A DNA stretch of 64,000 bases from Psammoneis japonica (Eukaryota). Below, piece after piece: positions 3,801 to 36,544 of the stretch (position 1 is the stretch's first letter; the number at the start of each line of letters is the position of its first letter). Made by a program: the position numbers and the translations under genes. The DNA lies in NCBI GenBank assembly GCA_008632985.1, contig QPGO01000108.1, forward strand, positions 176,476-240,475, in the 5' to 3' direction. A model generated the notes under the pieces. It saw only the letters and a list, made by a program, of their open reading frames with translations. It made no database searches and was not told where the DNA came from.

Positions 3801-4329
3801 ACAAGCTCAAGTTGGTGACATGGTTCATTTTTGAGAACAACCATGCAAATTTGCCTTGTCAATTCTCTCTTTCATTGTCTGCGCGTGCTGCAGACAATTG
3901 ATTTGTGCTGTTTTCAATGTGGGTTTCCATCAACAATGACTTTCTGTGCAGCAAGTTCTCATTCTCTGCTTCCCCTTCCTTGCATTTGCTCTGTTGTTTC
4001 CCTTCATTTGCCCACTGTCTTTCACTGTCTGTGTGGCATCATCTCACTGTTTTTTGCTGTGCTGGTGTCATGTCATGCTCCAATTGGCACCCATGCTCTG
4101 ATCAGTGTCCAGCTGCCATGATGCATCTTTCAACAATGGCCAGCTTCTGTGCGTGTTGTTTGTCACCCATGGGATGCCATGCCAATGCCTGCCATGAGAA
4201 AGCAGAGAAGTCATGGGCTTCACATGTTTGGTTTGGCAACTGTTTCACAATTGTGCTGCTTGCTGTTGTTGGGCACTGCAAGGCTGATCTCATGGTGGCA
4301 TGGCAATGTTGTCACCAACAGCAACAGCA

Positions 4330-5770: not shown

Positions 5771-7839
5771 ACCCAGGGCAAGACATCAAGACTTTTTGTT
5801 GGGCAAAATGCTGTTGATCTTTTGTTGAGGATTGAATGATCCTGTCTTTTCAATCCAGCAGTGCCACACAAAACCAAGATCACATGAGTGCCATGTCTGC
5901 CGCAGCTCCTTGACTCTCTCTGGTGCATCCACTCAAGCAGAGGAGCTGGCATGTTTTGTTGTGACTGCTGAAATCAAACCTTGAGGGGAGGGTGGGGGGC
6001 ATGCACTGCACTTGGCTCTTCTGAGGATTGCAGTGTGGATCTGGCTGAGTTGGAAAAAAGACTTGCACTGTGATGCAGAAGCCAAGGACTGAATTTCTGC
6101 AGTTGACTGCACTGGGGGAAGCAAAGGAGGTGACAAAGAAAGCCAAGAAAATTCCAAGCAATGTGGTTGACTCGACTGGACAAAACAATGCAGTGCATGT
6201 CAAACTCATGTTGGAGCCAAAAGCTGGCAAGCACAAGGATCTGCCAAAGACACTGGTCAAACAAATGGGGTGGAAGGTTTGCAAGATGCACAATGGAAAC
6301 CTGAAAAAGCATTTGCACAGCTTGAGTCCAACCCTGCCTCCAGGCCACACATTGTGCCACCAAAAATGCAAGCAATGAAAGACCTCATGTGCTTGTCCAA
6401 ATTCCAAGTCTCCTGCACCCAGACAAACCATCTGACCCAATCCTCTCATCCCCAGCAAGCCATGTCATCCTTGTCTCTGCTCAATTCAAGCCATGTCCCT
6501 CTTTGCACATGAAGAATGAGGTGGCACATGTCATGCATTGCTGGACCATCCAAGACTCTTTTTGTGGTGCCTCTCTGCACATCACTTGACAAGATCAGGA
6601 TTTACAAAATGAAACATTGCACATTTGATGGCACTGCAGCCATGATCATCCATGAACATCAACCACTGCAAACAAAATGCCAGATGTGTGACTTCAAACA
6701 GGCAGCCCCAGCGAAGTTGTCTGTGAGTCAAATGACACAACAAAGCATGGTTGTCAAGCTCAACACTTGTGAAAGTTGTGTGTGTGGAGATTTTAATTGC
6801 AAATGTGAAAACTGCAGTCATTGTTCATTGATTTGGGGGACGTCTTTGGAATTAAGACTGTCAAAGAACATTGCACTGCAGAATCTGCACCAAATCAGTC
6901 TGTCAATCAGTGAGATTGGGTGTGTGGGACCTCTGGACAGATCCTGCGTGTTTTCTTGTGCACACAAATTGTGCTGGGAAACCCCCAAATGCACTGGTGA
7001 TCAGACTGCTTTCAACGATCTCACTTCCAAAGATGCCCCCAGATTGTTCTTCTTGTCAAGTGCAGAAAAATGTTGCAAATGAGAAAGGAAAAATTTTTCA
7101 ATGCAAGCCATGTTGCACAATGGACCAAGTGGATCTTTTGTGAGGTTGCCTCACTCTGGGCGCTCTCTGCTGTGTGTCGCACCAGTGTCAGACTTGGCCA
7201 AAGTGAGAAAAAAATGACAGGCAGAAGCCACATGGAAGTGTCATGACAAGGACAAAAAAATTGTGGTGCAAGCCACTTTGCACAACAAACCAAGTGGGTT
7301 TGTGGATGCCTCACAAGGGGAGCTGCCCTGACAACTGAGCATGATGTCAACACTCAACATGAAATTTTCAAAAAATTCTCCACACTGAAGTCATTGAGCA
7401 ATGAACACATGATTGCCAACAGAAAAGGAGGCAATTTTGCAAACACATCTCCTCCTCCACACTTGGAGCACATCATTTCTGCTTGAAGTGATGCTGCTGG
7501 GCAGTTGTGGCTGTTGTCACATCTGAGTCAAGATCTGAAAGATAAAATGTCTTGGTTGTGGGGCAATGGTTGCATGCACACTGAACAAAAATGGGGCAAC
7601 AAAGAAAAGAAAAAGCAGCGCGGGCCACTCAAAAATGTCTCGCGTCAGTCGCAGCTGACACCTTGCACACAAGAAAAATGCGTGGTCATGCTGAAATGCA
7701 CACACAATGTCATGCAAGAGAGTGGTCAAAGCCAGTGACTTTGCGGGGGCTCAACTGAAATGTCATCTGATCTAAGGCATTTTGATCTTTTGATCAGACA
7801 ACGTTTCAATTGATTTCCTGAGAAGTTGACATTCAGATG

Positions 7840-7968
7840 TGGACAGACAGACAGACAGACAGACAGATGGACAGATGGACAGATGGACAGATTGACAGAT
7901 GGACAGATGGACAGATTGACAGACAGACAGACTGACTGATTGACTGACTGACTGACTGACTGACTGAC
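7840..7968 (+). repeat. Compound tetranucleotide microsatellite (GACA/GATG/GATT/GACT)n
   Basis: Directly visible. Confidence 0.95.
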
Positions 7969-9217
7969 AATGACTGTTTTTTGTTCTGTCCTGCAAAATG
8001 TCCTGCTGAGAGATTTCGGCATGTGGGAAGAATGAAAGAGGTGGCCGCCAGAGGCGGCCCAGAAGAATAAACTGAAAAGGAGAAAAAGGAGAAGAGAGAG
8101 AGGAAAAGAAGGAAAAAGGAGAAAAAGGGAAGATGTTGCAGGGCTGTCAACTTGCGGCCCTTGGCTGGGCTTCTGCCTGCAAAGCAGCTTGTCTGTGACT
8201 TGAGGTGCTGTGGTTTTACATGCTTGACAGCAAAGCTCCCACAGCACGCTGGAGAACTGTGCAGTTGTGTGGCATCTTTTGTGAGGAGTGTTTTGCTGCC
8301 AGCCCATCATGGCTTTTTGGGCAGCCTGTTTTCCAAGCCTTGCCCTGCCAGCTTTGTGGCCACTGCTGCGGATCTGTGTCTTCTTTGTTCTCCAAAATTC
8401 AATGCACACTTTGGCGGGTTTGGCCCCACTGTGTTCAAACAATTCTCTGAAGTTTCCAATCGAGAAGATGCAGTGTCATCCTCTTCAAAAGATTTTTGCA
8501 AAGATCCCTGGCAGCAAGCACTGGCCTTCCCCACCCATGCTTTCAGAAGTGCCTGTCTTGACAAATTCACAGCATCTCTCCCAAAGCATCTGTGGATGCT
8601 GCGCCCAAATTTTGGCCTCATGCATCACAAAATCTTGAGAGAATTTGCGAGATTCACCCCATCACGCACCGCCACCTTTGTGGATTTCCAGTGCAGCCAT
8701 GGCTTCTGCAGCAGGCTGTTGACAAACATGCAAAGCAAGTTCCCACTGGGACCTCAAATTGACCTGCAGCCTTCTTCATTCTGGCTGCACCCTCCCTGCT
8801 TGAATTCTGGGTGGCCAGTTGAGCAAAACCTGGCTCTGTCTGTGTTTTTCAGTCCATGTTTCTGGCTTTGTCACATGTGGTGCAAAGTGCCCTCAGGAAA
8901 ATGCTTGTGGTTGTGCTTGCCCAATGCTGTCCCATCAGCCAGTGCCTTGTGGCGCAGCCCAGTGCTTTGCTTGCTGGTCTGGTGTCTTCAAGAAGCAAAC
9001 CACACACCCCATTCTTGCCCAAAGAGGGGGGGGCAATCAGACCGATGCACATGCCTGAAAGACACCCTGTGTCATCAGGAGGTTCCACGATGAGAAAACG
9101 AGTGAGACGAATGAACAACACCACATCAGCTGCAACGTGTGAAAAAGTGGGAGCAAGATTTTGCGAGCGTGTCTTGGTTGTTGCGAGTGTTGCGCGAAGC
9201 CTTGTTGATGTCGAATC

Positions 9218-9385
9218 TACGCCACAACATGCTGACTTTGTACGCCACAAAACTTCAAAAATTTATTGCTTTTGCACTGGGTCTACGCCACAGGCGCATG
9301 TAGAAACTTGTGTAAAAATCACGTACGCCACTGTGGTGCAAAATTTGTGTACACCCTGAACCATTCTACGCCACTGGTGGCGTAG
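9218..9385. promoter_or_regulatory. Cluster of TACGCCAC motifs ending in an inverted pair (putative protein-binding site or element terminus)
   Basis: TACGCCAC at 9218, 9241, 9284, 9324 and 9367; CTACGCCAC-TG-GTGGCGTAG palindrome at 9366-9385. Confidence 0.5.
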
Positions 9386-11010
9386 GCTCTGGTGTGTTTT
9401 TTATGCTTCTGACTTGAATTTTTCCGTACGCAATGACTGTGAGATCTGCGACAATTCCCACTGCAACTGCCAATGGGCAAGCATGCATTTCAGTCAGAGA
9501 TGGGCTGACATGCACAGCAAGAAATCCAAGACTGCACTCCCACCTGCCCTGCACAACTCTCAAGAAAGACAAGACATTGTTCAAGAGCTGTGCTGTGCAA
9601 AAAAATGTTGAAAGTTGTTGAGTGGGTGGCCCAACAGCTGCACTGCAAAATGATGCAAAATGCCACCCAAGTCGTGCACCAAAAGAACACACAGCGCATC
9701 TTAAAAAATGTCAATGTCACAGCTCAGCAGCAGCGCAAGGTCCCACCCAGAGCCAGAGCATGCTGCCTGTCCTTCCCTTGTTTTGGACTGCAACTGTGAC
9801 CTGTGCTTTAGATGACAGCCCTTTTTTGCCATTGTTGGCATGGAAAATGATGTCAAGACCATTGTTGCATGTGGCATTGCTTGCTTTGTGCCAGCAAAAC
9901 CTGTGGCAACAGGGCCGCTGTCTCTTTGGGGCACTGCAAGCAACAGGCAGACAGGAGCTCAGATGAAATGAACAACAAATCCAGCCATGGTCACCAAGAA
10001 TTGGTGCAATCCAGCAGAAACATGCAACGCAGCAATCAACAGGAAATCCAGAATTGCACATTGATTGACTGTGCGGCCCGCTGTTTTGGCAATGCGCAAC
10101 AGTGACAGGCTCGCTCAAACCCACTGCATGAAATTCTGCATGGGAGGGACACCATGGATGAGCAATTTGACCGGTGTTTGTCCGCCATCCAATTCCTCTG
10201 TGGTTTTTGTGGAACAAAAAAGAAACCACCAACCAGGGTGACTGCACTGTTGCGATGGCATCAATGTTGAATGCAGAGCAGCGGGCATCATGCTGGTCAC
10301 ACCTGGAGTGCTCATTCAAGCACTGTTGCATGTGGCATGAAGATTGCCACCTGAATTGTTCAATTGTGTTGAGCATTTTGCTTTTCCTGCTCTCATGCAT
10401 TTTCACATCCATTTTGGCAAAAAGCATGGAGGCACCAAGCAAGCTGTTCTTGCCAGCAGAAGCAACAATTGGAGGGCACCTGCTGCTGTGACTGTGCAGG
10501 TGATCAGGCATGGAGGCAACTCAGCTGAAGCCAAACCTGCCAGTGTCCTTCTTGTCCTCCCTCCATCCACAAAGACAAAAAGAAAGTGGTGGGGAAAATG
10601 ATGGCAGACACAAACTGCAGTGGGTGCAGAGAGGAACAGACAGAGGAGAACAGATGGCAAAAGCAGAGCCAAGAATGTTTGTCCAATGGTTGGGTCCATT
10701 GAAGCAGATGTGTTTTCTTCCAAGGTGTCCAGTGCACTCATCACTTGTGTGGATGGCTTGCACCAATCACCAACTCCTGCTGATGAAAGCCACTCCTCAT
10801 GCAGGGAACAATGTTTGCTCCAACAAGGACATCTCTGCCAAGTCCCAGACACAGATGCTCTCCAGGATTTTCAGATGCTCCGCCTCTGTTTGGTGCTGCA
10901 TTGAGCACAGCAGAGATCACTGCTGTCAACAGATGATCAACCACATCTTCAAGATGAAATTGGTCCATGGATTTCAGTCATTTTCCTGCATCTGCAACTT
11001 GCAAAACAAA

Positions 11011-11523
11011 ACAAAACCTGGTTTCAAGTGCTGTCACACCTTTGTCCAGCAACAAAGGAACACTCACATCAACACTTGTCAGTGCCACAACAGAAGAGGT
11101 GCTTTCACCTGATGGAGCAAAGCACTTGATTGGCCAATGGAGACAAAGAAGGTTGTTGAGGACCAATGGGTGTGGGTGCAAGCAGTTCGGCGGAGCATTG
11201 TCACAGTGATTGTTGGCAGTTGGAACTTGTTGCTGACGCACGCAGAACTTCTGCTGGAATCCATGTGGCAAATTTCTTGAGTCTGCAGAAAATTACAAAA
11301 AAGATCAATGAGCATGTGAACCATGAGGAGTCAAGATCAGTCATTTTCCACTTGGAAACATCACTTGACACGCTGAGACAAGGGTGCGCCATCACTGTGG
11401 TTGAAATGGGCAGAATGGTTTCAGGAGACCCAGCACAGTGCCATCTGAGAAAGGCCACATCAGCACAAGAAGGTGCACAGAAACACGTGCAGGGGCTGCT
11501 GGTGCACATTTGCCTCAAAAAGT
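11011..11523. mobile_element. TIR-less long-TSD element, copy A (short, apparently internally deleted)
   Basis: Both ends are homologous to copies B and C. Flanked by GCAACTTGCAAAACAAA (10994-11010) and GAAACTTGCAGAACAAA (11524-11540). Confidence 0.7.
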
Positions 11524-13115
11524 GAAACTTGCAGAACAAACGAGACATCCCTGACCCCAACCCTTGCTGCTGGCAAGACTGCCCAGCATCAAGCAATGAG
11601 ACAGGGGTGGATCACTTCAGGTCAGAGTTCAGTGCAATGAAAGAGGAACTTGGAAACTTCAACAATGACTTTTAAGAGGCTGGTCACCAGAGAAGCTGGA
11701 TGATGATTCTGCCTTTTCTGGCTCTTCACGTCTTTCCCGCTCCCCGACAGCAGCGGACACTTTTTCAATCTGGCAGCTTCAGGTGAGATGGGTTTCCTTG
11801 CTGCCTCAGCCACAGATTTGCATGGCGACAATGACTTGCACTGCAAGCAGCTGGGTTGCATGAATTGAGGCTTGCTTCAAGGATTGAGCAAAAAGACACT
11901 TTGGTTGCAGATGCCACGTGCTCATGATCAGCTCTGTGCGGCCTGCCGCACAGCTCATGATTTGCACTTCAAAACAACACAGTGTCAGTTTCCCTAACTT
12001 GCATGCACCCACACACACTCTGTGTGTTGCTGCTGCACACACTGCCCCTTGCTGCAACTTCATTTGGCAGCTGGTTGGTTGGCGGAAACCTCGTCTGAGC
12101 CCAAGCGAATCTGGGAGCAAGCTTGGCGCTCATCCGTGAGACAATGACAATTTTTCCCTGGTGCCACCTGACTCCTCCGAGGAGCTTTCAAACATGGCCT
12201 CCTTTCCACAGTTTGTCCAATGAGGCATTGCAACTTCTCATCCGATCGAACTGCTTCAGAAGGCGGTCAAAAAGCACCGACACGGCAGAGGTGCATAAAT
12301 CGTCTGTTGTCGTTCGCACATGTTTATGACCAGAACATGTCCTGCCGTACCGCATACCTCTAGTAGCTAGGCCCTATGCCCTACAGTACAGTGTGGTGCG
12401 GTAAACCTTCATCACAACGATGATGATTCCATCCAACGTGCGCGCCGGCACCTCCCTCGTTGAAGCACGAGCACTGTAAAGTGATAGTTCAGTAAAGTGA
12501 TAGTACCGTAAAGTGACAGTAGAAGCAATAGCGTTTATACGCATTTATAGCCATAAATGATACATTAAAATTTTAAAAAATATCGAGCATAAGAAATTCA
12601 AAAGAGAGATTTTGAAATCCCGTCTCCTCAATTTTTTGGTCACAATCTGTTTTTCAGAGAGAAATACAGCATGAGAAAATTTGCCGAGGCTTCTTCATGC
12701 ATAATGAAGTTCTGTGTGCAATCTTGGTGCAATCAGCTCCATCTTCACTTTTCCTTTTATTGGTCCATGTATGAGATGATTTCAGATTGAGAGGCAGGAT
12801 TCTCCGCTGGAGAACAGGATTTGCTGTTGGGGCCTGCTCACAATTCACATTCCAACATCTAGCGACAACAGCAATAGCAACATTCTGCAGTTAAAGGATT
12901 TGCTTCTCAGCACCTCCCCTTGCAAGCAATACCACGCGGTTCACATTGGAGGTGAGAAGCATGTGTCAACTGGTTTGAAGGTAACAACTTCGCAGTCTTG
13001 TGCACGGCAACTGTCGATTTGCTCCCACGTTGTATGCAGCACTCCCGCTAACCGGTGGTGCTTTGTTATCTCACCTGTCCAAATGACTCAATGTAGCTCT
13101 TCCCACCAACATAAA

Positions 13116-14400
13116 ATGATTTTCGGAACTGCTTTCCTTTCGCTCCTGCTCGGCTCCTCCGTGGTTGCCGAGTCGACGCAAAGTCGGCTCCCTCGACGCT
13201 TGGGCTTGGGCTTGTTCAAGCGATGCGTCAGTGACCACGCTGGCCTTCGAACTGCTGTGGATGGAACCGGTTCAACGATTTGGGTATGTCCTCAGAATGA
13301 CATCGCATTCACTGAACAAATCATCATCAACAGGAGCGTCAACATTATGTGCAAGAAAGGCCTTCTAGGCAGCCTGTTAGGCTGGGAGTGTATCATGAAG
13401 AATGTCGCTACTCCTGCGGCAAACACCCGCCTCTTCACCATTGCCTCTGGGACTGTTCATTTCAGAGACCTTACACTTCAGGATGGCCGGTCGGATCAGG
13501 GAGGTGCCATGTTGGTTCAAAAGTCAGCAATGGCGGTGAAGACGGAGAATTGCGTCTTTAAAAACAATATGGCCGATCAGGCTGGTGATGCGGTAAGTCT
13601 CGATTGATCTCTTCAAGCTTTCTTTCCATGTATCAGAAGAACATCGAGACTAATTTACTCCCAGGCTGGCGGTGCTATGTACAGTTTTGCAGATTTTACG
13701 TCGGTTTCTGATAGATTCGAGGGAAACTTGAGCAATGACGTGAGTTTTCCCTTGGTACTGTTTGTGTGGTTTTTCACAATGAGATTCACGCGTTATTATT
13801 GCATCCACATCTGTTTATTCAGCGTGCTGGAGCCTTACGCGTTCACGGCGCGATAGCGACTCTCACAGACGCCGTTTTCTTCAACAACATGGCGGTGAGT
13901 CCTCACAGTATGAAAATATAATTTTCGCATGCCTCCATGACACTAGCTGACGCCCTTCTTGTTGATGTTGTCGTACTTTGAACAATTAAATGTTTTACTG
14001 CCTGCAATTAATAGGGCGGATCTGCCGGAGCAGCCGACGTTACAGAGGGCAAGTTGAGTTTGGTTCGTGGATCGTTCAATTGTAACACTGCAGGGGTGAG
14101 TAGAGGCGTGAACTGTGATTTGTTGCTCTTGTAACTGATTGTTTAGCTCACTATTCCGGCTTTTATGCGGCATCTCATTTGCATTTGAAGGCTCTTGATG
14201 GCAGTGATAACGTCTTTATCTGGGGGCAGTCAGTCCGTGGTAGTGAGCTAATCTGTCAGCAAAACACTGGGTTCTGCCCTACGGTTGCAAATGAAGGAAT
14301 TGTCGCGAGCGGCATTACTGCGGCGCCAGCACCCTCTCCCTGTGGCCTTCCTGATGCAGGTTTCTGTGGACCTTGTCCCGACCCTCCTAGTGGCATGTAA
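13116..14400 (+). CDS. Secreted right-handed beta-helix (pectin-lyase-like/Pmp-type GGA...FxxN repeat) protein, 5 exons
   Basis: Signal peptide MIFGTAFLSLLLGSSVVAES. Exons 13116-13592, 13665-13739, 13823-13894, 14015-14095, 14191-14400 with GT-AG introns splice in frame. Motifs GGAM..FKNNMA, AGGAM..FEGN, AGAL..FFNNMA, AGAA..FNCNTA. Confidence 0.85.
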
Positions 14401-17400
14401 TGAAGAAGTGCATGCCTGGGCATGTGATTAATGACATTTTATAATTCATGATTCCTGAACCACTTAATGCAAAAACAGAATACCTAGCACAGGCAGTTGA
14501 CGATTGACACAAGGGGTCATGAGAAGGAGGGGAAATGCATGACAATTGGTGCGGAACACGGTGCGTTTTTGCAAAAGTGCAGTAGAAATGAAAGCATGGC
14601 ACTGTCCCCTCGTGACACAGAGAGCCATGCTCATAATGTGAAACATCATTCAGTGGTGGGCTCACCTGTCCATGCATTGTGTGGCTGCAAATGAAGGGGA
14701 AAAACCAAATCTAAATTTAAAGTGCTGTCTCACTCCTTTGCCAGCTGGGCTGGCACCGGGTAACCCACACTTCCAGTGCACAGCCAAGTGCAGCAGAAGT
14801 TGAAATGGACCAGCCAGAATGGGCATCACTTTCTGGTGATGCCCCACCAAAGCAACTTGCACCATGAGCACTTTGCCTTCTTGATGCTTTCCTTTGGACA
14901 CACAGTTCAACCATGGCAACCCAATTTAGGATCCTAGAAGCAGCAAAAGTCAAATGGTTTTCAGCTGAATTCAGCAACACTTCTGCCCTTGGCTGAGTGG
15001 TCTTGTCATCTGTTGCAAATGGCTGTGAGTTCTGCTTGTGTGTGCTTGCGCTGAGATGATTTTCCAGTGTCAGCATCATGCCCATGTTCTGTTGCATTGT
15101 GTTTTCCCCACAGTTCCCACTGTGATTTCTAGGTGTGGGTGCCCATCTGCACTGCCCATGTTGGAGGAAGATGGTTTTTCTTGTGATGCTGCTCCAACAA
15201 TCCAGTTTTGTTGAGATGTGTTGCTTGAAAGGTGTTCCACAAAGTTGAATGTTGACCACCAAAAACTTGGTGCCAACCATCATTGGTCTGTTCTTGCCAT
15301 GACAGATGGAGCACAGGGAGAGTGTTGGTGTCATGCACCATCACATCTTGAAACCACATTTCCATGGACATCAACACAAACAGAAAATTGTGCAAAGGAG
15401 GCATTGTGTCAACATGGTCACAGTGCTTGCAGAAACCATGCAGAAAATTCTGCCTCCAAGCTTTGTTGTCAGGGCATCTGAGGATGTGATCTTGACCCTC
15501 CATTGGATGCTCAAATGCCAGGCAGTGATGAGGTTGCACTGGACTTCATTGGTTTGCAATCTCATTCATGGGAGAAGCTTGTGAATCAGCTTCACAGTGG
15601 ACACATGTTTTTTTTTAAATGTGCCGACAAGAGAGGCATGCGTGAACCAGTCAATCTCATTGGTGATGGACTCTTCATGCTGACTGCTCTGTTTTAGATG
15701 CACCCCAGCAATGCAGGGGCCATGGCGGCACAACAAACTGTTGACTTGGGTCCAACAGCAACTGTGCCATCCGTGACCCTGAAATGTGCCTGACAGTCAG
15801 GGAGCAGAAAAGCTTCTGTCACATCAGGTGGGTGCTGCTGGCCTTGATGCCAACATCTGCCAGTTCATCAGCTCTGATGTTCACCTTGGCATTGAGAGCC
15901 ATTGACTTGAGTCATCCAGCAGCAACTGTTCCATCTGTGAGACTGAAATGTGCCTGACAGTCAGGGAGTGGAAGAACTTTTGTTGCATCAGATGGATGCT
16001 GGCCTTGATGCCAACCCGCCACTTTGCCAGCTCTGACATTAACCTTGGCATTGAGATGGAGAGAGGCAATGGGAGCACGTCAATCTTGGCGTCTTTTTGC
16101 CTGTTCAGTGGTGGGAGCTTGACCAGGTGAGGATGAGTGGAGGAGAGATTCAAAGGTGATGGATGTCTGGAAGATTTTGTTGATGACATCTCAGTCTGAC
16201 ATTGAGACATTGGCAGCATGGTGTCAAAGGTTGAAATTGTTCTCTGCATTCTTAGAAGGATCAATGGAAGGGTGAGAGCCAGACAAACAGAGGAGAACTT
16301 CAACCAGAGCCCTGTTGTCACACCAGTTTTTGACACACCTGCATGGCAACATGCCTTGCAGAATTCAAGGAGGTGACCCACAAAACACAAAAGGGAAAGG
16401 ACACCATGTGCCTCCACATGACAGGAGGACAGCACACATCCAAATGCTGGGCTGTCTGTGACAGACCATCCAAACATGGCACTCTGATGATGCACTGATC
16501 CATTGCTGCCAGCATTGAGCCACTCTACAACAAAGAGATCAATCAGGTCATGAAGGGGTGGGTGAAAAACTGTCTTGGAAAACAAGGCCAACTTCCACAC
16601 CGGCAAGGCTTGAAGACATTCTTTGAATGAGTCAGGGAGAAAAAGGGGAAGCTCAACATTCAATTTCAATCACTGTGGGTGGAATTGCCAGTGACCCTTT
16701 GAAATCTGAGAAGATCTCTGCTGGAAACAACTCTTTGGATGGTGTTGGGAGGGTTTCAAGTTGATGCACTGAAGTCACCTTTTCATTTTGAACCAAGAAA
16801 ACATCAAATCCCAAGGGAGAGCAAACATGTGGACATGACTCAGCTGGAGACTGACATGCTGCTGCCAGCATGTGCATTCTGGAAGGTGGGGTTGGCCAAT
16901 CTCCCAAAGGAGCATGCAACCAGGTGAAGTCAGGGCAACACAGCATTTCACAGAGGCAGATCCAGGGACCCCAAGCATGGTGGCAACGTTTCTCCTGTTT
17001 GACATTGTCAAGGGTGCTGACGCTGCTTGCAAAAGTTAGATCACCACAGATCTTGGATTTGTCTGGAGCCAGTCCATTGGCAAGTGCTGTGCCTGACACT
17101 GCAAGGACCTTGATGAGGCAGAGGTGGCAGCAATTGATCCACCTCATTTCCAAGGAAGAGAAAGCTGCAGATTCCAGCACCAAATCCATCAGGCGTGGGT
17201 TGTTGTCACATTGGAGAGGCAACATGCTGGCATTCAACAGCGCCATTGTTCTGCCAATGCAGTTGAGAAAGGATCAAACAGAAGCAAACCACAGCAACTC
17301 ATTGCAAGGGTGTGGGGTGCTCACAACTTGCAAGAAACTGACACCAGCTTGTGGTTGCAATTGATTGTTGCATGCAACAGCAATGCACACAGCAGCGCAG

Positions 17401-18140
17401 GGTTGGTCATCTGCAAGCAGCTGCTGAGTTGTTGAAGTTAAGCCACACCCTGCTCTGCATCAAGGGACCAAAAACTGCCACCACCAAGAGACTGTGGGCT
17501 GCACAGCATGAGGTGCTTGGTGTTTCTGTTGCAGCCACACTTTGCAAAGACAACTTGCGCTGCACATTGTTGAATCTGCAGGAGAGCTTTGGTGGCAAAG
17601 TGAGAACCACCAAAGGACAAAAGCAGCCCATGGCAAGCAGCAGGTGCAGCAGCATCTCCAGGACTTGGATCAGTCCAGCAGAGTGGATCAAACAAACGAG
17701 GCCTTCCCATCACTCTCACTTGGAGCTGCTTCTTGAAAGTGCCTGCGGGAGAACTGCAATGGCTGAGAGTTTTGTGGGGAGCACAGGGAGACAACGAGTG
17801 CTGCACCTTGAGGTGGAGCAATCAGCACAGAAATTTTCCACACATGGGTCTTGGTTGTGTGGGTGGAGGCTGGGTTCATTGCACTCAGAGAACTCCTGTT
17901 CGGCGGTGTGGAAGGAACATTCAGGCAGCAGCTCCAGTTTGTGTCCACTTGCATGGAGAAGATCACACAAGAGCTGGCTGGGTCATGCTGCAATTTTGTG
18001 GGCAAGCTCTTCAGCATGGGGTTGAGGGAATGCATGAAAGTCGTTTGCTTGTTTGGACATGTCATCCACCACATGCCCATGGGCACAGATGTTCAGTTGA
18101 TGAGAGCCATCAGGAGATTGTTCAAAGAATGTGCCACAGG

Positions 18141-18378
18141 CAGGCTTGGGGTTTTAGGGGGGAGGGTTTCAGCAAAAAGGGGAATCCCCCAGATGAAAGA
18201 AGCGGGGGCCCAGTTTTAGGTGAGCACTGTAGAACTGTGCTCTCAGTGGCACACAGTGCGCACGTCGTCCCACAACGCATGCTGCGTGGCACATGCACAG
18301 TGACAGCAGCTCACAACCCATGTCTTCAGACAAAATGAAGTGGGCCCCCCCTGCTCCCCCCTAAAACCCTGAGCCCAG
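18141..18378. mobile_element. MITE (hAT-like) inserted in the LINE RT
   Basis: ~24-bp imperfect TIRs CAGGCTTGGGGTTTTAGGGGGGAG / CTCCCCCCTAAAACCCTGAGCCCA; 8-bp flanking direct repeat GCCACAGG (18133-18140, 18379-18386). Confidence 0.75.
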
Positions 18379-19129
18379 GCCACAGGCCTTGGAGTCAAAC
18401 ATGTCAAAATGAAAGCTGCACAAGTTGTTCCAGCAGAAAAGAGAGTTGCCACTTCCTTGGCCAGTGCTGCAGATTGGGGATTCCCGGCTGTGAGAGTGCA
18501 AGGCTTTGGACAATCCCAAGAGGGTCAGCAACCAGCAACAAGCAAGATGGGTGGTGGAGATTGTGGTTGTCACAGCAAAGGGATCCATGCCTGGACTGAC
18601 AGATGAAATTGCCATGAGCACTGGAAGACTCTGATTGCAGCAAGAGGGGCAGTTGTCATTGCTTGCAATCAGGGTCTTCTTGAAACTCTGGAGATCTTGA
18701 GCATTGACACTTCTAAAAATGCTGGAGTTTGGGCACAAAGGAAGGCATGAGTGCTGTGTGTGCCGGGTTGAAAAGACAATGTCACTCCATGCATGTTTTG
18801 CACCAAAGCTTGCCAGTTGACACTTGTCATCAGGTGAAAGTCTGCCTTGCAGATGTTGGTCACACACAGCCAAAGTGTCTTGTTGTTTCCTGGTTCCTTG
18901 AAGATCATGATGCTGACAATGTTGTGTCATCAATCAAAGGAGTGTCCCTCCTGCTTGATGGTGCAGTTCAAAAGGTTCAAGCAGATGGTCTGCAGTGTTT
19001 CCTGGATTCTGTCTGATTCCAGATGTTTGCAAGTCGGACTCCCTTGTGCGTCCTTGGCCAAAGAATGAAGATGATTCACGCACATTGCCTTCCAATGTTT
19101 AAAATGAAGACCAGACTTGACAGAAGCAG

Positions 19130-19499
19130 AGGTTGGCTCTGACCACAACTTGAATTTTCCATGGATGTCATCTGTTGTGAGGAAGTTTGACACCAAAATG
19201 GGGGTGTATCATCACAGGTGTTTGACAAGCAATGCTGCAGCTTCAGTCATGCCAAGTGTTTCACAATCACCATTGAGAATGAGCTCAGCCACAATTGTGC
19301 TGCCCTCACAACCCAGGTTGGCTCTGACCACAACTTGAATTTTCCATGGATGTCATCTGTTGTGAGGAAGTTTGACACCAAAATGGGGGTGCATCATCAC
19401 AGGTGTTTGACAAGCAATGCTGCAGCTTCAGTCATGCCAAGTGTTTCACAATCACCATTGAGAATGAGCTCAGCCACAATTGTGTTGCCCTCACAACCC
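19130..19499 (+). repeat. Near-perfect 185-bp tandem duplication within the LINE
   Basis: 19130-19314 vs 19315-19499; I see two differences, including TA (19207) vs CA (19392). Confidence 0.9.
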
Positions 19500-19860
19500 A
19501 GGTCAATTGACAGGTGAGGAGCAGCCTGAGGAGTGCCATGGGCCTGGCCAAAAGCTTTTGATTGTGGGCTTTCAAAGCAGCAGCCACATCTTCTGGGGTG
19601 TCAACAGTTGCCCCCAATCATCACATGTTTTCAGGTCAGACACAGCGTTTTCTGGAACCTGGATGTTGCCAACACTGGAGCTGTGTTTGTTTGCAAATGC
19701 ACTGACCTTGCAAAAGACTCAGGCAGTCTCTTTTGCACATCATGAGTTTCATGGGATTTTTGCTTCTTGCTTGGTCACAGTGGGGGTGCCTTCCAGGTCT
19801 AACTCGCAACTCGGCAATGCGTGCATCTTGTTCCTTTTTGTGGTGGTGCAGGCTGTCTCA

Positions 19861-20891
19861 AAAAAAAAATCCAACTTTAAGTGCCATTGCACCTTTGCCC
19901 AGCAACACCGGCGCCGGCCAACCCACACTTCCAGCACACCCCATGAGAGAGGTGCAGCAGAAGATTGTGCGATCAGTTGGTCAACGCGCCGCTTTGCAGC
20001 GATGCGCACCAGAGACAAAAGGTCAAGAAAAAATTGCACCAGAATGAGATTGTTGCTTTCTTTTGGAGAGGATTTAATGCACCCAAACTGCCACAGCAAA
20101 GGACAATCAAGTTAAGTAGAGAATTCAAAGTCAGCGCAAACTCTGAGAGAAAATCTTTGCTTCTGAGGGAGAATCTTGTCTTCAACAAAGACTGATTGAA
20201 TTTCACAATTGCATGGACCAGAACAACAGTGTGCAGTTCACTGCTCGGAACAGTGATCTTGGCAAGCCAGCAAGTGGAACAGGGGATGTTTGGGACTTGC
20301 AAGGATGAAATGGGAAGTCTTGGTGATGTGACAAGAAGGTCGTTGGAAGAAACATTGTTCTCACGTAGAATTGACACTGAATCTTGCGTAGAAAAGCCGA
20401 TCCACGCAGCAAATGGACGGTCGTCAGGTGATGCCAATGGTTTGTCCATGCAAACACTCGCAGGCACCACAACAGGGACAGCACTTTCACCAAATGAGGT
20501 GAAGGACTTGAGCAGCCAGCAAGAGCAAAAGAAATTGTTGGGGGCTTTTGGGTGTGGTGGGAAGTTGATCGCATCGGAGACGCAATGACCATCGGTGCAT
20601 GTTTCTGAAGCGCACAGAATTTGCACTGGATTCTGTGTAGAAATCGCACCGAATCCACAAAAAATTGCCAAATGAGACAACAAGCATGCGAACCACAAGG
20701 TGTCAACGCCAGTCGATTTTCCACTGAAAATCATTGCACATCATGGAGATAAAAGGGTGCACCAATGGCAGAAGGGGCCAAAAGGTTGACAGGGGACCCA
20801 GCGAAACGCCATCTGAAGAGGGCGACATCAGCACGAGAGCACACGTAGAAACACACGCAGGGGCTGCTGGTGGGTGCTTGCGCAGAAAAGT
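19861..20891. mobile_element. TIR-less long-TSD element, copy B, inserted into LINE coding sequence
   Basis: Perfect 18-bp direct repeat GTGGTGCAGGCTGTCTCA at 19843-19860 and 20892-20909. The LINE frame (...WSPETACTT|TKRNK...) rejoins when the insert is removed. Confidence 0.85.
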
Positions 20892-23800
20892 GTGGTGCAG
20901 GCTGTCTCAGGTGACCACTTTGCACTCAGTTTGAGCCCTGTGGAGAGTGTCTTGACATTCATCCCTGGCAGATGGAAGAAGAAAGGAGTCTTGAATCTTG
21001 TGGTGCTCCCACACAATCTGCTCTCCAAAATGCACTCGATTCTTGAACATGGACAAAAGGTGGGACAGAATGAACACTTTTCATGGCAGGTTGGCTGGCT
21101 TGCAGAATCAAACAGTTTCTTGATGCTGTTGGCATCATTTGGCAGTCCATGGACAAGTTTGTGTCATGTGGTGCTCCAATTGTTCTGCAAGTGAATGATC
21201 TGGGTCATCTGAGGCAAGAAGAGCAGAGCTGTGCTCCAACACATTGGCCGATGCTGGCTTCCAAATGCACTGTGGCGCATGTTTTGGGGATTTTGCTTGA
21301 AGGGTCCAGTGAGCAGAACAGGGAACATCCACTGAAGAATTGCCAAAAAGAGCAGCTCAGCAGTGTCAAAGTCCACAAAAATGTGTGTGGTGATCTGACA
21401 ACACATGATGTCCAAACTGTTTGCACCCACATTGCAAGACAGCCTGAAGAGCACCTGGAGCAGCAAAGAGACACAATTGAAATGGAGAGATTCTTGGAAC
21501 AGGTGGCAAAATCCATGTCTTGCATTTGATGAAACATGACATTGAAAAGATCAAAACAAATGGCGGTGTTCCCAGGGTCAGGGATCAGTGCCGCAGTGAA
21601 AGTTGGCATTGAAGTCCCCAAAAAGGATGACTTCACAGTTTGGTTTGTCCAAAAAAGATTCAAGAACACAAGACACATTGGCACAGAAGGCTCTCTGGGC
21701 TTCTGGTTGAGTGCAACCCTGTTGTTGCAGTGAGCTGACCTGCTGAGCACAGGCTGCAATCTTTCCAGCAGCAGAAGAGTTGTCAGCACACACTTGACAA
21801 CATGACACAAACACAACTTGTTTGCCTTGCTTCCCATCAAAAATTTGAATCGACCACCATCCCAAAGGAAAAGTTTTTTGGTGCAATGACAGAAAGCCAC
21901 CAAATTGCATGAGATGGTGGCTGTGCCACATGGCTTGCATGGAGTCATCAACAGAATGGATGGTGCAGAAAAAGCAATTCAACCATGGTTGAGAGAATTC
22001 TGTGCAACAGATCAGCAGGGTTGGGAGATCTGGGGTTGAGCAGCATCCAAACAGGTTTCAAAAATGCCAACAATGTCTGCCTGAATCTTGTTGATGACCT
22101 GACACCAGGAATTGAAGTCACCACCAATTGAGTCAAAGGAACAACCATTTGCATTGACTGCATGGAAACAAGCAAGGGGTTGCCAACTTCATTGCTTGAC
22201 TTTGGATTTCAGCAGTCTGTGGTCTGAGGTGGAAGAAAATGCTGTCTGCCATCAAGGGTGCATGAGTCCATTGCACTGAGCAGCATCTTGCAACAAAGAG
22301 AATGTTTGCACTTGCAAGAAGGTCCCCTGCTGTGCAGTGGGAGAAATGTTGGTCAAAGGGGTGTCACCCCTCATGATGAGGCTGTGCTCCCTTCAAGGGA
22401 GGGCTGGGGGATGGGCGCAACATCTGCATCATTTGCCGTGGGCAAAGGAGATGACTTGGTTTGCCCATTAAAAATGCAACTCCGCTTGGGCTGCATCCAT
22501 CACAGAAATGTCAGGGGGCTCTTCTGTGGAAGCTCTAGCAGGGGTGATGGCTGGCTGTTTCTTGTGCAAGGGGGAGGAACAAGAGTCAGACTCAGGAAGC
22601 AGAAGCTGCTCTTGGATGAAGGCTTGGAGTTTTTGGGCCAAATCATTCATTTGTGTTTGGTGCTCTTTTTGTGGGTTGGCCATGGATTGCTGATGTTGCT
22701 CCTTGGCTTCAGCCCACCAGCTGTCATTGTCCAGTCCATGCAAACAATCTCCTGTTTTAGCTCAGCCACTTTGGAGGAATGGTCAGCAAGGTTTGGGGTT
22801 GCTGCAGCAGGAGAAGGTTCATTGGGTGATGAGCCAAGGGCCTGAGCAAACATTTTGAAGTGGTGAATGCCCACGTCAGTGGGAACCAGAGGGGCTTGAC
22901 TTTGCAAAGAGGAAGCAGGCAGAGCAGCTGCACAAAATTTCTGATGTGTCCAGGGAGCTCCAGCTGCAAATGCCAGCAGAAGTGATGGAGTTTGCAGTGT
23001 CTGACATTTCATTGGAGATTCCTGAAATCATTGGGTGGGGTTGACCTTGCTTGTGCCAGCAAGGCATCCTCTGGAAGATCATTCATCATGCTTTGGGGGG
23101 TCTGATTGAGGTGTGAGCAAACTTGCTTGAGATGTGTCTTGTGCACAAGGACATTGAAATGGAAAAAAGTGGTCTTCCTCTTGGAGGGGATGACATTGTG
23201 AATGCCATCAATGAGTTTGAGCTTGGGACAAAGATGAAAATTGACAGCTTTGGTGCAGCACAACAGGGGAATCACACAAGTCTTCACCGCAAGTTTGTGT
23301 TGGTGCTGAGTGGCCTTGTTGCATGCTTCACCTTCAGGTTGAGAATGATGCCAGTGGGAAAGGATCAAGAACCTGACCAAGGATGAGTTTTCAGGATCTC
23401 CAACAAGACATTCAGCACTGGCTTTGTCATGTGAAGTTTTCAACTGAGTGAAATTCTGCCCAGATTGAGCACTTGGCAGGAAAGGAGATCTTCTGGGGAA
23501 TGAGTCTGATTGGCAATTTTGCATGATGGCTGTTCCGCACAATGGCTTGGAGTTGCTTGATGACAACATCAGCAGAGTGGCATTTGGGGAGATGCTTGGT
23601 GATTTGCAGGACACACACAAGGTCTGTGGTGGTCTCATCCCATTCATGATGCTGCACACATGTGGAGTTGTCTTTGAAAGTCTTGTTGAGACAAAAGGAA
23701 TGTCTCCAACACTCCCCAAGAGCCCAGAGATTGCTGGAGGGTGCACTGGCAGCTGTTTGTCTGTGGCAACATGCATTTTCTTGCAATGTTTGCACCAAAA

Positions 23801-25821
23801 TGATGTTGACAATGACAGAATGTTGTCATTTGGCTGGGACATTGATCTTGTCACCAAATTGCCACTCTTCTTGCTCCTGGTTTTTTGCTTTTGCTGCACA
23901 CAGTTGATGTCTCTTGTCAACAAATGGAGCCCATGGACTCAGTGAGTCAGGGCAATGACTGTCAAGAAAAGGGTTGAAGTGTCTGCTGTGGCAAAAATGA
24001 CCATGACCAACACTTGCACCAAGGTTTTGATTCAATGAATTCCTCTCTGCAGTTGTGCATGCATTTGAACACAGTGCTTCTTGGTGAAGTGTTTGTCAAG
24101 CACAATGCACGCCAATCCTCATCAATCCAGGCCCCATGGCTTGAGTTGAGAACCCAACAGTGAGCAACCAGGAGCTTGCTTGACTCCACTTCACAACATT
24201 TTCTTTCATGTGGATGAAATCAAGCCAAGCACTTGCCAATCTTGTCACTCATCCAAAGCAATTCTGGGCACCACTGCAGCTGGCCATTGATGTGCAAATT
24301 GAGCTCCCTGCTTGTTTCTTCACCACTGGAGTCTGTCACCCAAGTGCTCAACTTGGGGGTCAAGGAACTGTCAAAACAGGCAAATGCACAGACATTGCCT
24401 CATTGAAGAAATGCTGGAATGCAGCTTGTTTTGGGTGTTGTCTTTGACCAGTGCCCTCCAAAAAGACCAGCAGTCCTCCACACATTGGTTTTGGGTTTCA
24501 TCTAGAAGTGGTGTCTGTGCATCATTTTTGAGTTTTGCCAACTTCAACCTCATTGTCAAGACCAACTCCCTTCCCCTTGAAATGCCAGAAGGCCCAGTCA
24601 ATCAACGTGTGCTTGCAAAGAGCCAACACAATGACAAGCCCCCCCCCTCCTTTCCTTTTGCTGCTCCTTGATGAGATGAAGCATCAGAGATGTCTTTTGC
24701 TGGTGGATGCCAGCAGCGCACCAATTGAGCAATGTGCAAATGCTTCATGGCCAAATGCACGACATTCTTTGCACCAGCAGAGTTGTGCTTGAGGTGGTGG
24801 CCTCAAAGATCAACACCATCCCAATGGACTGTCGCAATGAACCTTGCAGTCCTGTGACATCACCACCCAACACTTTTGTGGAAATGTGCACCCCACTGCA
24901 ATCTCACCCTTTGTGATCAAGCAGTTCTTGAGGCTTGCACACTTCATGGATGTCATTGATTCTTGGTGGTTTGGGTTGCTGTTTGCTGTCAGCCATTGGC
25001 TGTCAAAAATCATTGGCGCCACTCAGTTGTTGGTGATTCCAGACTTTTTTTTGTGGATCAGTTGGTCAACCAGCCAGTCTGTGTTTGCAAAATCAGGTTG
25101 ACACAACCTGAAAATGTGTCATCATTTTCAGACCATTGTGTTTCCATTTTCTTCTGCATGACACTCCCATGTGAAATTGGTTGAGACAGCCCTGGGAACA
25201 TCTGACTGGAGTGACAATTGTGGGCACTCTGTGTTTCCCTCCAAAACAGCCCTGTCACATGCAGCAATGCTCTTGCAGTCACTGCCAGCCAGCACCAGCC
25301 AGGGACATGTGAACATCTGACCTCTGGCACCAAGGGGTTACATGGCCCTTCTGTCACAGAGCAAGACTGCACAATGGTTGCAACACTTCCCATTCCCACC
25401 TCACACAAACCTTTTCTCCAACAACAACACCTCCCCCCCCCAGCCATGGTGGCACTTTAGAAAAAGTGCTGCTTGCAAGTTTGAGTGTGTCTGGTTGAGA
25501 GCTTTGCCTGGCTCTCTTGCAAAGCCACACACGTGAAAAGTGTGCGCCACTTGCCATGTTCTGAGGGCACTGCCAAGACACAAAGCTGGGTTGTTGAGCT
25601 GTGCCACACAAGAAAGTCAAACAAAACAGGAGAGTGGTGACTGCCACTGGCATTTTGAACAGACCCTGGCCAAGCCAAGTTGTCTTCATGTGTGGTGCAC
25701 TGGCCAGATTGGTTTTGAAAGGAGCTTTGTAAAGAGTGCCGCACGGCAAAGGAGTTTGCAAATTGCAGAGGGTCAAAAAGAGAGCACCCAAATTGCTCTT
25801 GACTTTGTTGCCAAAACAAAA

Positions 25822-27078
25822 AAAAACCCAAACCTGATTTAAAGTGCTGTTGCACCTTTGCCCAGCAACACCAGCGCCGGCCAACCCACACCTCCGGCAC
25901 ACCCTACAAGGGGTGTGGCAGAAGTGGATTCGATTGGCCTGAATTGGCGTCTCCCTGAGGAGACGTTGATGGAGACAGTTGGTGCAGAGAACATGACAAC
26001 ACTTGGAGTTTGCTGAGGCATTGCTGGTGACACACACATTGGCCACACCACCACCACAGAGGACAGTTGCATTTGGAAAAAATTTACACAGAAGCCACAA
26101 AGGAAGCCAAAAGGAAGTCAAAGGAAGAGCGCCAAACCACTGGCTGCACAGCTCATCAAGTGGGAAACCTCATTCAAACCTCAAAGAAATGAAACAACAG
26201 AAAGAGCACTGCATGTGACAGAGAGCTTGATTTGCCAGCAAATGAAGGAGATTTTGTCCAGGACTGGGAGATGAGAAATGGGAACAATTGATGATTCGAT
26301 GAGTTGGTCTCGGGAAAAACTCACACTTAGAAACTGTGCCGGATCTTGCGCAGACATGCCAATGCAAGCAGCAAATGAATGGCAGTCACTTGTCAAGCAG
26401 GAAACCTCATTCAGACCTAAAAGAAAAATGAAACAATGGAAAGACCACTGCATGTGGCAGAGAGCTTCATTTGCCAGCAAGTGAGGGAGGGTTTGTCCAG
26501 GACTGGGAGACAAGAAATGGGAGCACTTTTGATGATTCAACGAGTCAGTCATTGGGAAAGACATTTTTCCCATGCAGAAACCACACCGGATCTTGCACAG
26601 AAAAGCCAACACATGCAGCAAATGGATGGCAGTCACTTGTTGCCGAAGGGAGGCTCATGCTCACACTCGAAAGCATCACAACAGTGAAGGACTTGATTGG
26701 CCAATGGGAACAAAGAGAGTCATTGGAAACGGAAGAGCATGGGTGCAAGAAGCTTGGAGACTTGACAAAACATTCATTGGTGGGGTTTGCCAAGGCACAC
26801 AGAATTTGCACTGAAATCCGTGTAGAAAATTTCTTGGAGCTGCAGAAAACACCAAAAAAAATCAACGTGCATGCGACCCACAAAGAGTCAACGCCAATCA
26901 TTTTCCACTTGGCATCGTTGCTTGACATGCCAGAACAAAAGCACACCATTGATGGAAAGGGCCAGAATGGTCGTGGGAGACCCCCAGCAAAATGCTGTCT
27001 GAGAAAGGCAACATCAGTGCGAGAGCGCACGTGGGAACACATGCAGGGTTTCTTGGTGGGTGGCTGCCGCAGAATTGT
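25822..27078. mobile_element. TIR-less long-TSD element, copy C (with internal ~236-bp tandem duplication at about 26163-26640)
   Basis: Homologous to copy B end to end. Flanked by GACTTTG(TTG)CCAAAACAAAA (25801-25821) and GACTTTGCCAAAACAAAA (27079-27096). Confidence 0.8.
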
Positions 27079-27655
27079 GACTTTGCCAAAACAAAATGAG
27101 CAACAGGCCTGAATTTGTGACCATGTGGGATTTTTGGCTTGGCAACTGGAGATGGGGGTGCACATGGCTGGTCCAGTGCCAGCTGTTGTTGTTGTCTCTG
27201 TTTTTTTTTGTGGCAACTGCCTGAACCCAGCACAGCACAGCTGGTGCTGCAGGGTTCAGATGCACTTGTGAGTGTGGGCATCTTTAAGCACAGGATTCAG
27301 TGGCCAAGTGGGAGGCTCGTGAGCCCCTCCTCCTGTGACTGTCTCTCATCTGAAAGCCTGTCTCTTGCAGCACTTTGTTGCCCCTCTTGTATTTGGCATG
27401 CCAACTATACAAAGATGCTTTCAGCACACTCCAATTGATGATCATGCTGTTTTCGCAAAAGGGTGAGAAACACGTGCATTGGTGTGTGTGTGTGTGTGTC
27501 TGTCTCCGCAGTGTCTGAGTGTCTGCATTCAGCATGGGTAATTGAGCTCCGTCTCCGAGCGACGGGATTTGATCAATCTCATGCGTTTTGTGTTCACGGC
27601 GCTCAGAAAAGAACAGCAATGGCGTCGGAATGGAGTCAAATGTTTGAATCTTAGC

Positions 27656-31257: not shown

Positions 31258-31629
31258 GGTGAATGAACCGAGAGTTTCAAGTTTTAGTTGTGAGGTAAGC
31301 GTGTGCAGCATGCGTGTGTTCACCAAAAATGTGGCCACGGAGTTGGCGGGAGAAATGCACATGACTTCCAACGGGCAAAGAGGGAAAAGAAAGCTTCGTG
31401 AGTGAAGATTGGATTTTCCAGACTCCGACCAACCCAGTTGAATACTCGTTATATATCCGTTATATTTATATGGTGATGTAAGTTTGTTAGATGCCAAGAA
31501 AGCAATACTGAAAATAAAAACATTCGGCCACGATGGAAAGCATTCTTCACTTCACTTTTTGAAAATTTAATCCTCACTATAATGAATGCATAAAGATCAT
31601 TCCTTCATCGCTCCTTTTCTGTCGAAGAC

Positions 31630-36250: not shown

Positions 36251-36544
36251 CAGCAGTGTCATGGCTCTACCAGCTCTAGCAGCTACCGTACAATGCCGTG
36301 TGCCGTAATTGTGCGCAGAAGTTGTGCGGTACGTCCGTCACACCTCTCGCCCAATCAGAGCTCGTGTGCGACCGAGCGAAAATTTTGAATGCACGCAAAA
36401 TCAAAAAGCGAGCAGTAAGGTCCTCCACGACCACAATGGCCAAAAAGAGCGGTGTGTGGCAAGAGCAACCCATTGATTACATCGAAAGAGTACCTTATAA
36501 GGTTTCACCTGAAGCATACAGTTTATCTTTGGAGTGAGAAAGAC

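What the first reader, a model, noticed from the sequence alone, without database searches (positions are those of the whole stretch)
10994..27096. Unclassified TIR-less mobile element family with 17-18 bp target-site duplications
Seen: three diverged copies, A 11011-11523 (~0.5 kb), B 19861-20891 (~1.0 kb) and C 25822-27078 (~1.26 kb). They share a left end (A-run, then ..TTTAAGTGCYRTYRCACCTTTGYCCAGCAACA) and a right end (..GACCC..CAGC..TCTGA..ACATCAG..GCAGGG..TGGTG..AAWWGT). Each is flanked by its own direct repeat of 17, 18 and 18 bp, all beginning with G. The repeat flanking B duplicates LINE coding sequence, so it is a true TSD. I find no TIRs, LTRs or recognisable ORF. Both termini are kept despite internal deletion or duplication, which is DNA-transposon-like, but an almost fixed ~18-bp TSD is longer than in the standard eukaryotic superfamilies. 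Read on the minus strand, the element ends in oligo-T abutting T-rich target sequence, the mirror image of poly-A TPRT. Either mechanism would be unusual.
Basis: partly seen in the sequence, partly recalled or inferred. Interest (0 to 1): 0.78.

Follow-up and report, generated by a model that had tools for sequence, protein, structure and literature searches.

The report
LINE-hitchhiking retroelement with open frame
This is a many-copy, 1-kb jumping element of an alga that borrows the start, the T-rich tail and most likely the copying enzyme of a large LINE retrotransposon, and oddly keeps a long reading frame free of stops although the protein sequence itself drifts freely.

Summary
The three copies and their flanking repeats are real, but this is not a DNA transposon. 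It is a non-autonomous partner of a 7.85-kb LINE (endonuclease, RT, RNase H) in the same, diatom-like genome. Read on the minus strand it begins with the LINE's first 18 nt (B type) and ends with the LINE's structured last ~165 nt and oligo-T tail. TSDs are not fixed: 13-20 bp (38 copies, one 23), like the LINE's own, with the same target preference. Oligo-T or T-rich tails are general in this LINE group. The body also repeats the LINE's 5' motif every 240-249 nt. Best reading: mobilised by target-primed reverse transcription, with selection on being translated rather than on the protein. The scan had noted the kept-open ORF and T tail on other DNA of this genome. No RNA data. Verdict: new variant of bipartite non-autonomous LINEs; interest 0.55.

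The parts
10994..11010 (+). TSD of copy A, left copy
   Evidence: 17 bp, 2 mismatches to 11524-11540
11011..11523 (-). Copy A: A-type subfamily, internally deleted (about nt 461 joined to nt 989 of its subfamily), keeps only the last ~45 nt of the LINE-type tail
11524..11540 (+). TSD of copy A, right copy
14692..23690 (-). Decayed host LINE of the partner group (ORF1, APE, RT, RNase H, CCHC pieces) into which B inserted; 3' tail at ~14692-14860; 5' end not located
   Evidence: tblastn with P0001 and ORF1; tail match; 5' end search failed
19843..19860 (+). TSD of copy B, left copy; LINE ORF2 sequence
   Evidence: 18 of 18 identical; flanks contiguous in an uninterrupted LINE
19861..20891 (-). 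Copy B: full-length 1.03-kb element, 91% identical to the least-mutated copy L034
19861..20030 (-). LINE-shared 3' module of B: hairpin overlapping the ORF end, long stem, oligo-T tail
   Evidence: blastn 83-88% over ~110-125 nt; alignment and covariation
19973..20828 (-). Relic of the 284-codon ORF in B (first ATG at +64; one 1-nt indel in this copy)
   Evidence: intact in L034:774-1628
20364..20393 (-). One of the paired TTCTACR motifs that recur every 240-249 nt in the body and three times in the LINE 5' UTR
20874..20891 (-). 5' head of B: first 18 nt shared with full-length LINE 5' ends
   Evidence: 21 of 24 LINE 5' loci shown start at the same base with the same motif
20892..20909 (+). 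TSD of copy B, right copy
25801..25821 (+). TSD of copy C, left copy (3 nt longer than the right copy)
25822..27078 (-). Copy C: C-type subfamily, 1.26 kb, internal duplication of ~240 nt (in frame in the least-mutated copy L113), ORF decayed here
27079..27096 (+). TSD of copy C, right copy

Best explanation
A non-autonomous non-LTR retroelement mobilised in trans by a co-resident APE-RT-RNase H LINE. Steps: (1) transcription from a LINE-type internal Pol II start at the shared 5' end, perhaps helped by the repeated TTCTACR motif pairs (inferred); (2) the RNA is translated from the first AUG at about +64 to a stop ~115 nt before the tail, near where LINE ORF2 ends (frame shown; translation inferred); (3) LINE ORF2p binds the shared structured 3' module (homology and covariation shown; binding inferred); (4) the endonuclease nicks so that a 3' A pairs with the U tract, cDNA is made in place, and a second nick 13-20 nt away gives the TSD (TSDs shown; chemistry from established TPRT knowledge); (5) inserted copies are then erased by TpA/CpG hypermutation (shown). 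Selection keeps the frame free of stops and frameshifts but not its amino acids, so what matters is most likely translation in cis: escape from nonsense-mediated decay or ribosome-coupled capture of ORF2p (inferred). The TPRT part alone I put at about 0.95; the whole statement at 0.6.
For: Shared 3' end with LINE copies and no other blastn match in 14 long stretches; full-length LINEs of 7.85 kb with TSDs, APE by Pfam E 6.6e-8, RT and RNase H by Pfam in homologues. Shared 5' start: 21 of 24 LINE 5' loci shown. Same target signature: pyrimidine next to the 5' end in 34 of 38 short copies and 19 of 21 LINE starts; TSD starts with T on the sense strand in 34 of 38; nine LINE TSDs of 12-19 bp read by eye, two of them on 5'-truncated copies. 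3' module: 94% of cells paired, 20 cells changed on both sides, 0 of 500 shuffles as high (structure derived from the same alignment). Tails track LINE lineages: J type 82% to the window's host LINE vs 70% to the C224 LINE; B and C types 80-82% to C224 vs 69-72%. Open frame: sense-strand stops by frame 0/11/8 (B), 1/18/13 (C), 0/9/8 (J), mostly lineage-private in the other frames; neutral simulation P(no stop) about 0.005 per lineage; 6 of 8 indel events among subfamily consensuses are triplets vs 12 of 66 in decayed copies. No amino-acid constraint: transversions by codon position 34/26/29, 28/29/28, 25/28/26 vs 703/438/1436 in LINE ORF1 and 62/33/171 in ORF2; fourfold sites differ 0.23-0.29 vs 0.51-0.64 in LINE ORF1; dN/dS 0.77 (0.54-1.09), like the other five frames.
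Against: No RNA, ribosome or protein evidence was obtained. Only 18 nt of the 5' end are shared and only by B-type heads; C-, A- and J-type heads differ and no LINE with their exact heads was found. A hydrophobic stretch (aa 41-58) stays hydrophobic in all three lineages more than drift predicts (P about 0.015 each, window chosen after the fact), which hints at some protein-level constraint. Two of 8 consensus indel events are not triplets, one little-mutated copy (L131) is frameshifted, and TA-restored consensuses carry several in-frame stops, probably from over-restoration but not proven so. The frame statistics rest on one copy per lineage. The dN/dS interval includes values well below 1.
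Confidence: 0.6

Rival explanations
1. Same LINE-driven mobility, but the ORF makes a functional accessory protein (membrane-anchored or ORF1-like helper) evolving under relaxed or diversifying selection, as an analogue of HAL1/HeT-A.
For: Same start Met and stop position, 36-45% amino-acid identity across lineages; hydrophobic segment kept; lower half of the dN/dS interval.
Against: No third-position or fourfold-site excess where the LINE ORFs show a strong one; no homologue in Pfam, Atlas, two large protein searches, metagenome contigs or LINE loci; no similarity to the N-terminal 238 aa of the partner's ORF1 (probability 0.2%).
Confidence: 0.25
2. A purely non-coding SIDE/SINE-like element whose body is an array of promoter monomers; the open frame is a vestige or a by-product of unit lengths that are multiples of three.
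For: TTCTACR occurs 6-7 times (0.2-0.3 expected) in pairs at 249/240-nt periods; conserved blocks are conserved at all three codon positions.
Against: Stops arise and turn over in frames 2 and 3 but not in frame 1, with similar one-step opportunities; triplet unit length cannot explain the lack of nonsense substitutions; the body has no unusual RNA folding (z -0.97, 0.33, -0.27).
Confidence: 0.12
3. A TIR-less DNA transposon with a fixed ~18-bp TSD.
For: Most short copies keep both ends (27 of 30); 5' ends are precise.
Against: The 3' end is a LINE tail that follows ORF2 in autonomous copies; TSDs vary 13-20 bp; 5'-truncated LINE copies carry the same TSDs; no transposase was found behind either end in the loci read.
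Confidence: 0.02

Closest known systems
ORF-bearing bipartite non-autonomous LINEs: HAL1, HeT-A, Ag-Sponge (Kojima 2018, PMC5786205, passages read; HAL1 also PMC5753468, passages)
   Same: Keeps LINE 5' and 3' ends, lacks RT, carries one long ORF, presumed Pol II transcript.
   Different: Their ORF is ORF1p and is thought to act as a protein; here the ORF shows no similarity to the partner's ORF1 or ORF2 (apart from a few C-terminal codons inside the shared tail), has no homologues, and shows no amino-acid constraint.
SIDEs and ORF-less bipartite elements: R2 SIDE (PMC3414825, passages), RIME, NARTc, Bov-A (PMC5786205, passages)
   Same: LINE-matching ends with an unrelated middle (R2Dwi_SIDE has a 197-bp centre of unknown origin); precise 5' ends; conserved 3' structure.
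   Different: Those have no ORF and are reported from RTE, Ingi, Vingi and R2; the shared 5' part here is only ~18 nt, no ribozyme matched in Rfam, the tail is oligo-T, and an 850-nt frame is kept open.
EhSINE1 of Entamoeba (PMC2996970, passages)
   Same: LINE-partnered, no clear Pol III boxes, internal repeats, long variable TSDs (18-24 bp in young copies), T-rich targets.
   Different: Described as having no plausible ORF; repeats are 26-27 bp, not 240-249; partner is R2-related (PMC2657916, passages).
Ambal clade of diatom non-LTR retrotransposons (listed in PMC5753468 and PMC12803021; domain layout recalled, original description not seen)
   Same: The partner LINE has APE, RT, RNase H and a zinc knuckle; its only named homologues among the 120 listed are Fragilaria crotonensis proteins.
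   Different: Clade membership could not be tested without reference sequences; T-rich tails and a non-autonomous partner were not found described in the searches run.

Membership tests
Non-autonomous non-LTR retrotransposon | 3' end shared with an autonomous LINE of the same genome | tested here: met
Non-autonomous non-LTR retrotransposon | Variable-length TSD and target preference like the partner's | tested here: met
Non-autonomous non-LTR retrotransposon | Mobilisation by partner ORF2p | not testable with these tools
   needs an assay
Bipartite (internally deleted) LINE / SIDE | 5' end derived from the LINE 5' end | tested here: met
   18 nt plus repeated motif for B type; weaker for other subfamilies
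Bipartite ORF-absent class (SIDE, RIME, NARTc) | No protein-coding frame | tested here: not met
HAL1 / HeT-A / Ag-Sponge class | ORF is the LINE's ORF1 | tested here: not met
   no tblastn hit at E 0.1 in 112 LINE loci; hhalign 0.2% against the N-terminal 238 aa of ORF1; an unsampled LINE lineage cannot be excluded
Classical SINE | tRNA, 7SL, 5S or snRNA head (Pol III) | tested here: not met
   ARAGORN 0 of 4 loci; Rfam no match at E 1 in 4 loci
DNA transposon | TIRs or fixed TSD, transposase partner | tested here: not met
Ambal clade (partner LINE) | APE-RT-RNase H ORF2 in a diatom (recalled) | tested here: met
   RT and RNase H scored by Pfam in homologues, not in the mutated own copy
Ambal clade (partner LINE) | RT phylogeny groups with reference Ambal elements | not testable with these tools
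   no Repbase or Dfam access

The most novel reading that the evidence does not exclude
A kind of retroposon whose success depends on being translated end to end while its protein is irrelevant: a LINE promoter head, an array of promoter-like units that happens to be kept stop-free, and a LINE tail reached by the ribosome near where ORF2 would end, so that it mimics the LINE mRNA to capture ORF2p or to escape decay. It would be the first natural case found here of selection on translation alone in a mobile element, maintained over many lineages that track different LINE tails.
Probability: 0.45. Interest if true: 0.8.

Novelty: new variant of a known kind. Interest (0 to 1): 0.55.

Why it matters
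How non-autonomous RNAs overcome a LINE's preference for its own mRNA is an open question; Alu is thought to do it through ribosome binding (recalled). An element that keeps a frame open without conserving the protein offers a direct test of whether translation itself recruits the RT or protects the RNA. The partner group also ends in U-rich rather than A tails across many metagenome relatives, which bears on how TPRT is primed. For annotation, these elements will be called as orphan genes or unknown DNA transposons unless recognised.

Tried and rejected
Search for a transposase or longer autonomous form behind the short heads: none in 30 loci or 20 further stretches of 4-10 kb. Homologues of the short ORF: none. 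AlphaFold on three sequences: pLDDT 33, uninformative, so no fold search was run. RNA runs: no RNA holder listed; not evidence either way. tRNA and Rfam heads: none. Body as structured RNA: no folding excess. ML omega by iqtree ran but the value was not recovered from its output, so none is reported. One search used a misregistered structure string and is discarded; one search is the corrected count. LINE RT piece against PDB sequences: no hit. 5' end of the window's host LINE not found. TSD scoring left 25 of 63 candidates below threshold, including window copies A and C, whose repeats carry transversions or an indel. Literature searches showed no paper on this family, on T-tailed diatom LINEs, or on an unconstrained kept-open ORF in a non-autonomous element; most listings were seen as titles and abstract starts only, no supplements were read, and Repbase Reports are outside the library.
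Full report
Observation. B's flanks map to adjacent, overlapping positions of an uninterrupted LINE copy (2817-3235 and 3220-3618), so its repeat is a true TSD. The family is abundant: the two ends gave 166 and 71 candidates in the 91-Mb own genome, 40 scored each; counts are lower bounds.

The left end is a LINE tail. Many left-end hits continue not into the short body but into RNase H and zinc-knuckle coding sequence on the minus strand. Two such copies are full-length 7.85-kb elements with TSDs, an ORF1 and an ORF2. ORF2 has an AP endonuclease (Pfam E 6.6e-8); 346 homologues were found, mostly 1,900-2,100 aa among the 120 listed, the only named ones from the diatom Fragilaria crotonensis, with RT and RNase H scored in some. 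The short elements match these LINEs by blastn only over the last 110-130 nt; alignment extends this to about 165 nt, including the last codons of ORF2 in the short ORF's frame for C and E types. The shared region folds into conserved stems with 20 cells changed on both sides, 0 of 500 shuffles as high, slid controls 1-6; the structure came from the same alignment, so this leans in its favour. Tails track LINE lineages: J-type tails resemble the window's host LINE (82% vs 70%), B and C types the C224 LINE (80-82% vs 69-72%).

This is a property of the LINE group: of 80 metagenome relatives I printed the 50 that reach near the ORF2 end; by eye 15 end in a run of six or more T after a conserved box and most others in T-rich simple repeats; 0 of 46 scored had eight A within 400 nt.

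The right end is a LINE-type 5' end. Of 26 LINE 5' loci I displayed 24; 21 start at the same base with the motif that opens B-type short elements, identical over 18 nt in the least-mutated copies. No tRNA or Rfam head was found. The hexamer-plus-purine TTCTACR occurs three times in the 75-nt LINE leader and 6-7 times in each short element (0.2-0.3 expected), in pairs spaced at 249 or 240 nt; units 2 and 3 of B are 44% identical without gaps (shuffle maximum 34%). I read these as promoter-like monomers; that is inference.

TSDs. Of 63 candidates with both ends, 38 distinct insertions gave a scoreable TSD: 13-20 bp, one 23, median 17, 14 of 38 at 17-18. 34 of 38 begin with T on the sense strand, i.e. 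the primer would end in A opposite the U tract; 34 of 38 have a pyrimidine next to the element's first base, as do 19 of 21 LINE starts. Nine LINE TSDs read by eye are 12-19 bp, two on 5'-truncated copies of 1.0 and 1.4 kb. Short copies are mostly complete (27 of 30), which fits their length.

The missed ORF. Repeats here have lost most TpA and CpG (window repeat zones TA o/e mostly 0.00-0.1; 996 such changes vs 865 others in 21 copies), the TpA part matching the pattern described in Bigelowiella natans (bioRxiv 10.64898/2026.01.13.699255, passages read). In the least-mutated copies of three lineages one frame runs from the first ATG near +64 to a stop at the same place before the tail: B 284 codons, C 364 codons with one internal TGA in a duplicated unit, J 306 codons. 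These lineages are 64-68% identical with almost no indels (C-J none in 469 nt). Sense-strand stops by frame are 0/11/8, 1/18/13 and 0/9/8, mostly private to each lineage in the other frames. Neutral simulation gives P(no stop) about 0.005 per lineage; among eight subfamily consensuses 6 of 8 indel events are triplets against 12 of 66 in decayed copies. Yet the protein is not conserved as a protein: transversions are even over codon positions (34/26/29, 28/29/28, 25/28/26) while LINE ORF1 and ORF2 at like divergence give 703/438/1436 and 62/33/171; fourfold sites differ 0.23-0.29 vs 0.51-0.64; dN/dS is 0.77 (0.54-1.09), as in the other frames. No homologue was found anywhere. Against this reading: a hydrophobic stretch persists (P about 0.015, post hoc), one little-mutated copy is frameshifted, two consensus indels are not triplets, restored consensuses hold some in-frame stops, and there are no expression data.

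Mechanism. Most likely the RNA starts at the LINE-type 5' end, is translated to near the ORF2 stop position, is bound at its 3' structure by LINE ORF2p, and is inserted by target-primed reverse transcription with U:A pairing at the nick. Ends, TSDs, structure and frame are shown; transcription, translation and binding are inferred. I favour selection on translation in cis (decay escape or ribosome-coupled capture of ORF2p), 0.6 overall; an accessory protein under relaxed selection 0.25; a non-coding element with an incidental frame 0.12; a DNA transposon 0.02.

Comparison. It works like bipartite non-autonomous LINEs. Kojima 2018 (PMC5786205, passages) splits these into ORF1-present (HAL1, HeT-A, Ag-Sponge) and ORF-absent (from RTE, Ingi, Vingi, R2). 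This element fails both: it has an ORF, and the ORF is not ORF1. R2 SIDEs also have an unrelated centre (PMC3414825, passages); EhSINE1 has long variable TSDs and internal repeats but no ORF (PMC2996970, passages). The partner resembles Ambal by domain layout (recalled) but membership was not testable. Ten library searches showed no description of this family; Repbase and Dfam could not be checked and no supplements were read.

Earlier scan notes, seen after I had stated this reading, describe a LINE-tailed 1.1-kb element with a kept-open, drifting ORF, the T-rich LINE tails, the shared 3' module and the TpA hypermutation on other DNA of this genome. They agree and are not independent support. 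The summaries shown to me do not mention the shared 5' start, the 240-249-nt motif periodicity, the matched target preference or the lineage-specific tails.

Verdict. Real feature, wrong first mechanism, and more interesting in its middle than in its TSD: a new variant of a known kind, interest 0.55; if translation alone is what is selected (probability 0.45), 0.8.

Noticed in passing
window 2001-12000, 14001-27000, 32001-36000, 47001-49000: Repeat zones have lost nearly all TpA (o/e mostly 0.00-0.1) and most CpG, with TG and CA raised; genes are unaffected. TSD pairs sometimes show TA changed one way in one copy and the other way in the other. Same TpA pattern as reported for Bigelowiella natans.
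   Followed up: partly
L300 (C297:65400-65580) and L301 (C371:6730-6910): Two LINE copies break off inside the 3' module and continue in G-rich hexamer repeats that look like mutated telomere repeats (identification recalled).
   Followed up: no
L005, L006, L008, L011, L012, L019, L065-L068, L074-L080: A ~23-bp satellite interleaved with pieces of the LINE 3' end and one shared flank recurs on at least six contigs, suggesting an amplified LINE-satellite block.
   Followed up: no
L061:2025-4475 and L063:3220-5112: LINE ORF1 and ORF2 appear to lie in the same frame, separated by a single stop in the C224 copy that reads as a sense codon in the C5 copy; the 5' leader is also open in that frame.
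   Followed up: no
L217-L296 (metagenome loci): LINE relatives end in varied T-rich tails (T runs, GTTTT, TTA, TTAG, ATTTT and an 8-mer repeat) after a conserved box; none with poly(A).
   Followed up: partly
window 4220-5785: Several overlapping long frames with repeated peptides point to a decayed tandem repeat of a few hundred bases.
   Followed up: no
window 30082-31551 and 50240-51532 (minus): Two paralogous secreted proteins resembling GH16 glucanases, 20 kb apart (family name recalled, not tested).
   Followed up: no
window 36419-46844 (plus): Three abutting long frames (898, 1399, 1285 aa) with a MYND-like finger and UvrD-like helicase motifs, possibly one very large gene (names recalled, not tested).
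   Followed up: no
window 51779-53739 (plus): Looks like a zeaxanthin epoxidase gene with an intron (name recalled, not tested).
   Followed up: no
L044/L053, L056, L083: Some short-element copies carry tandem or duplicated 5' parts.
   Followed up: no
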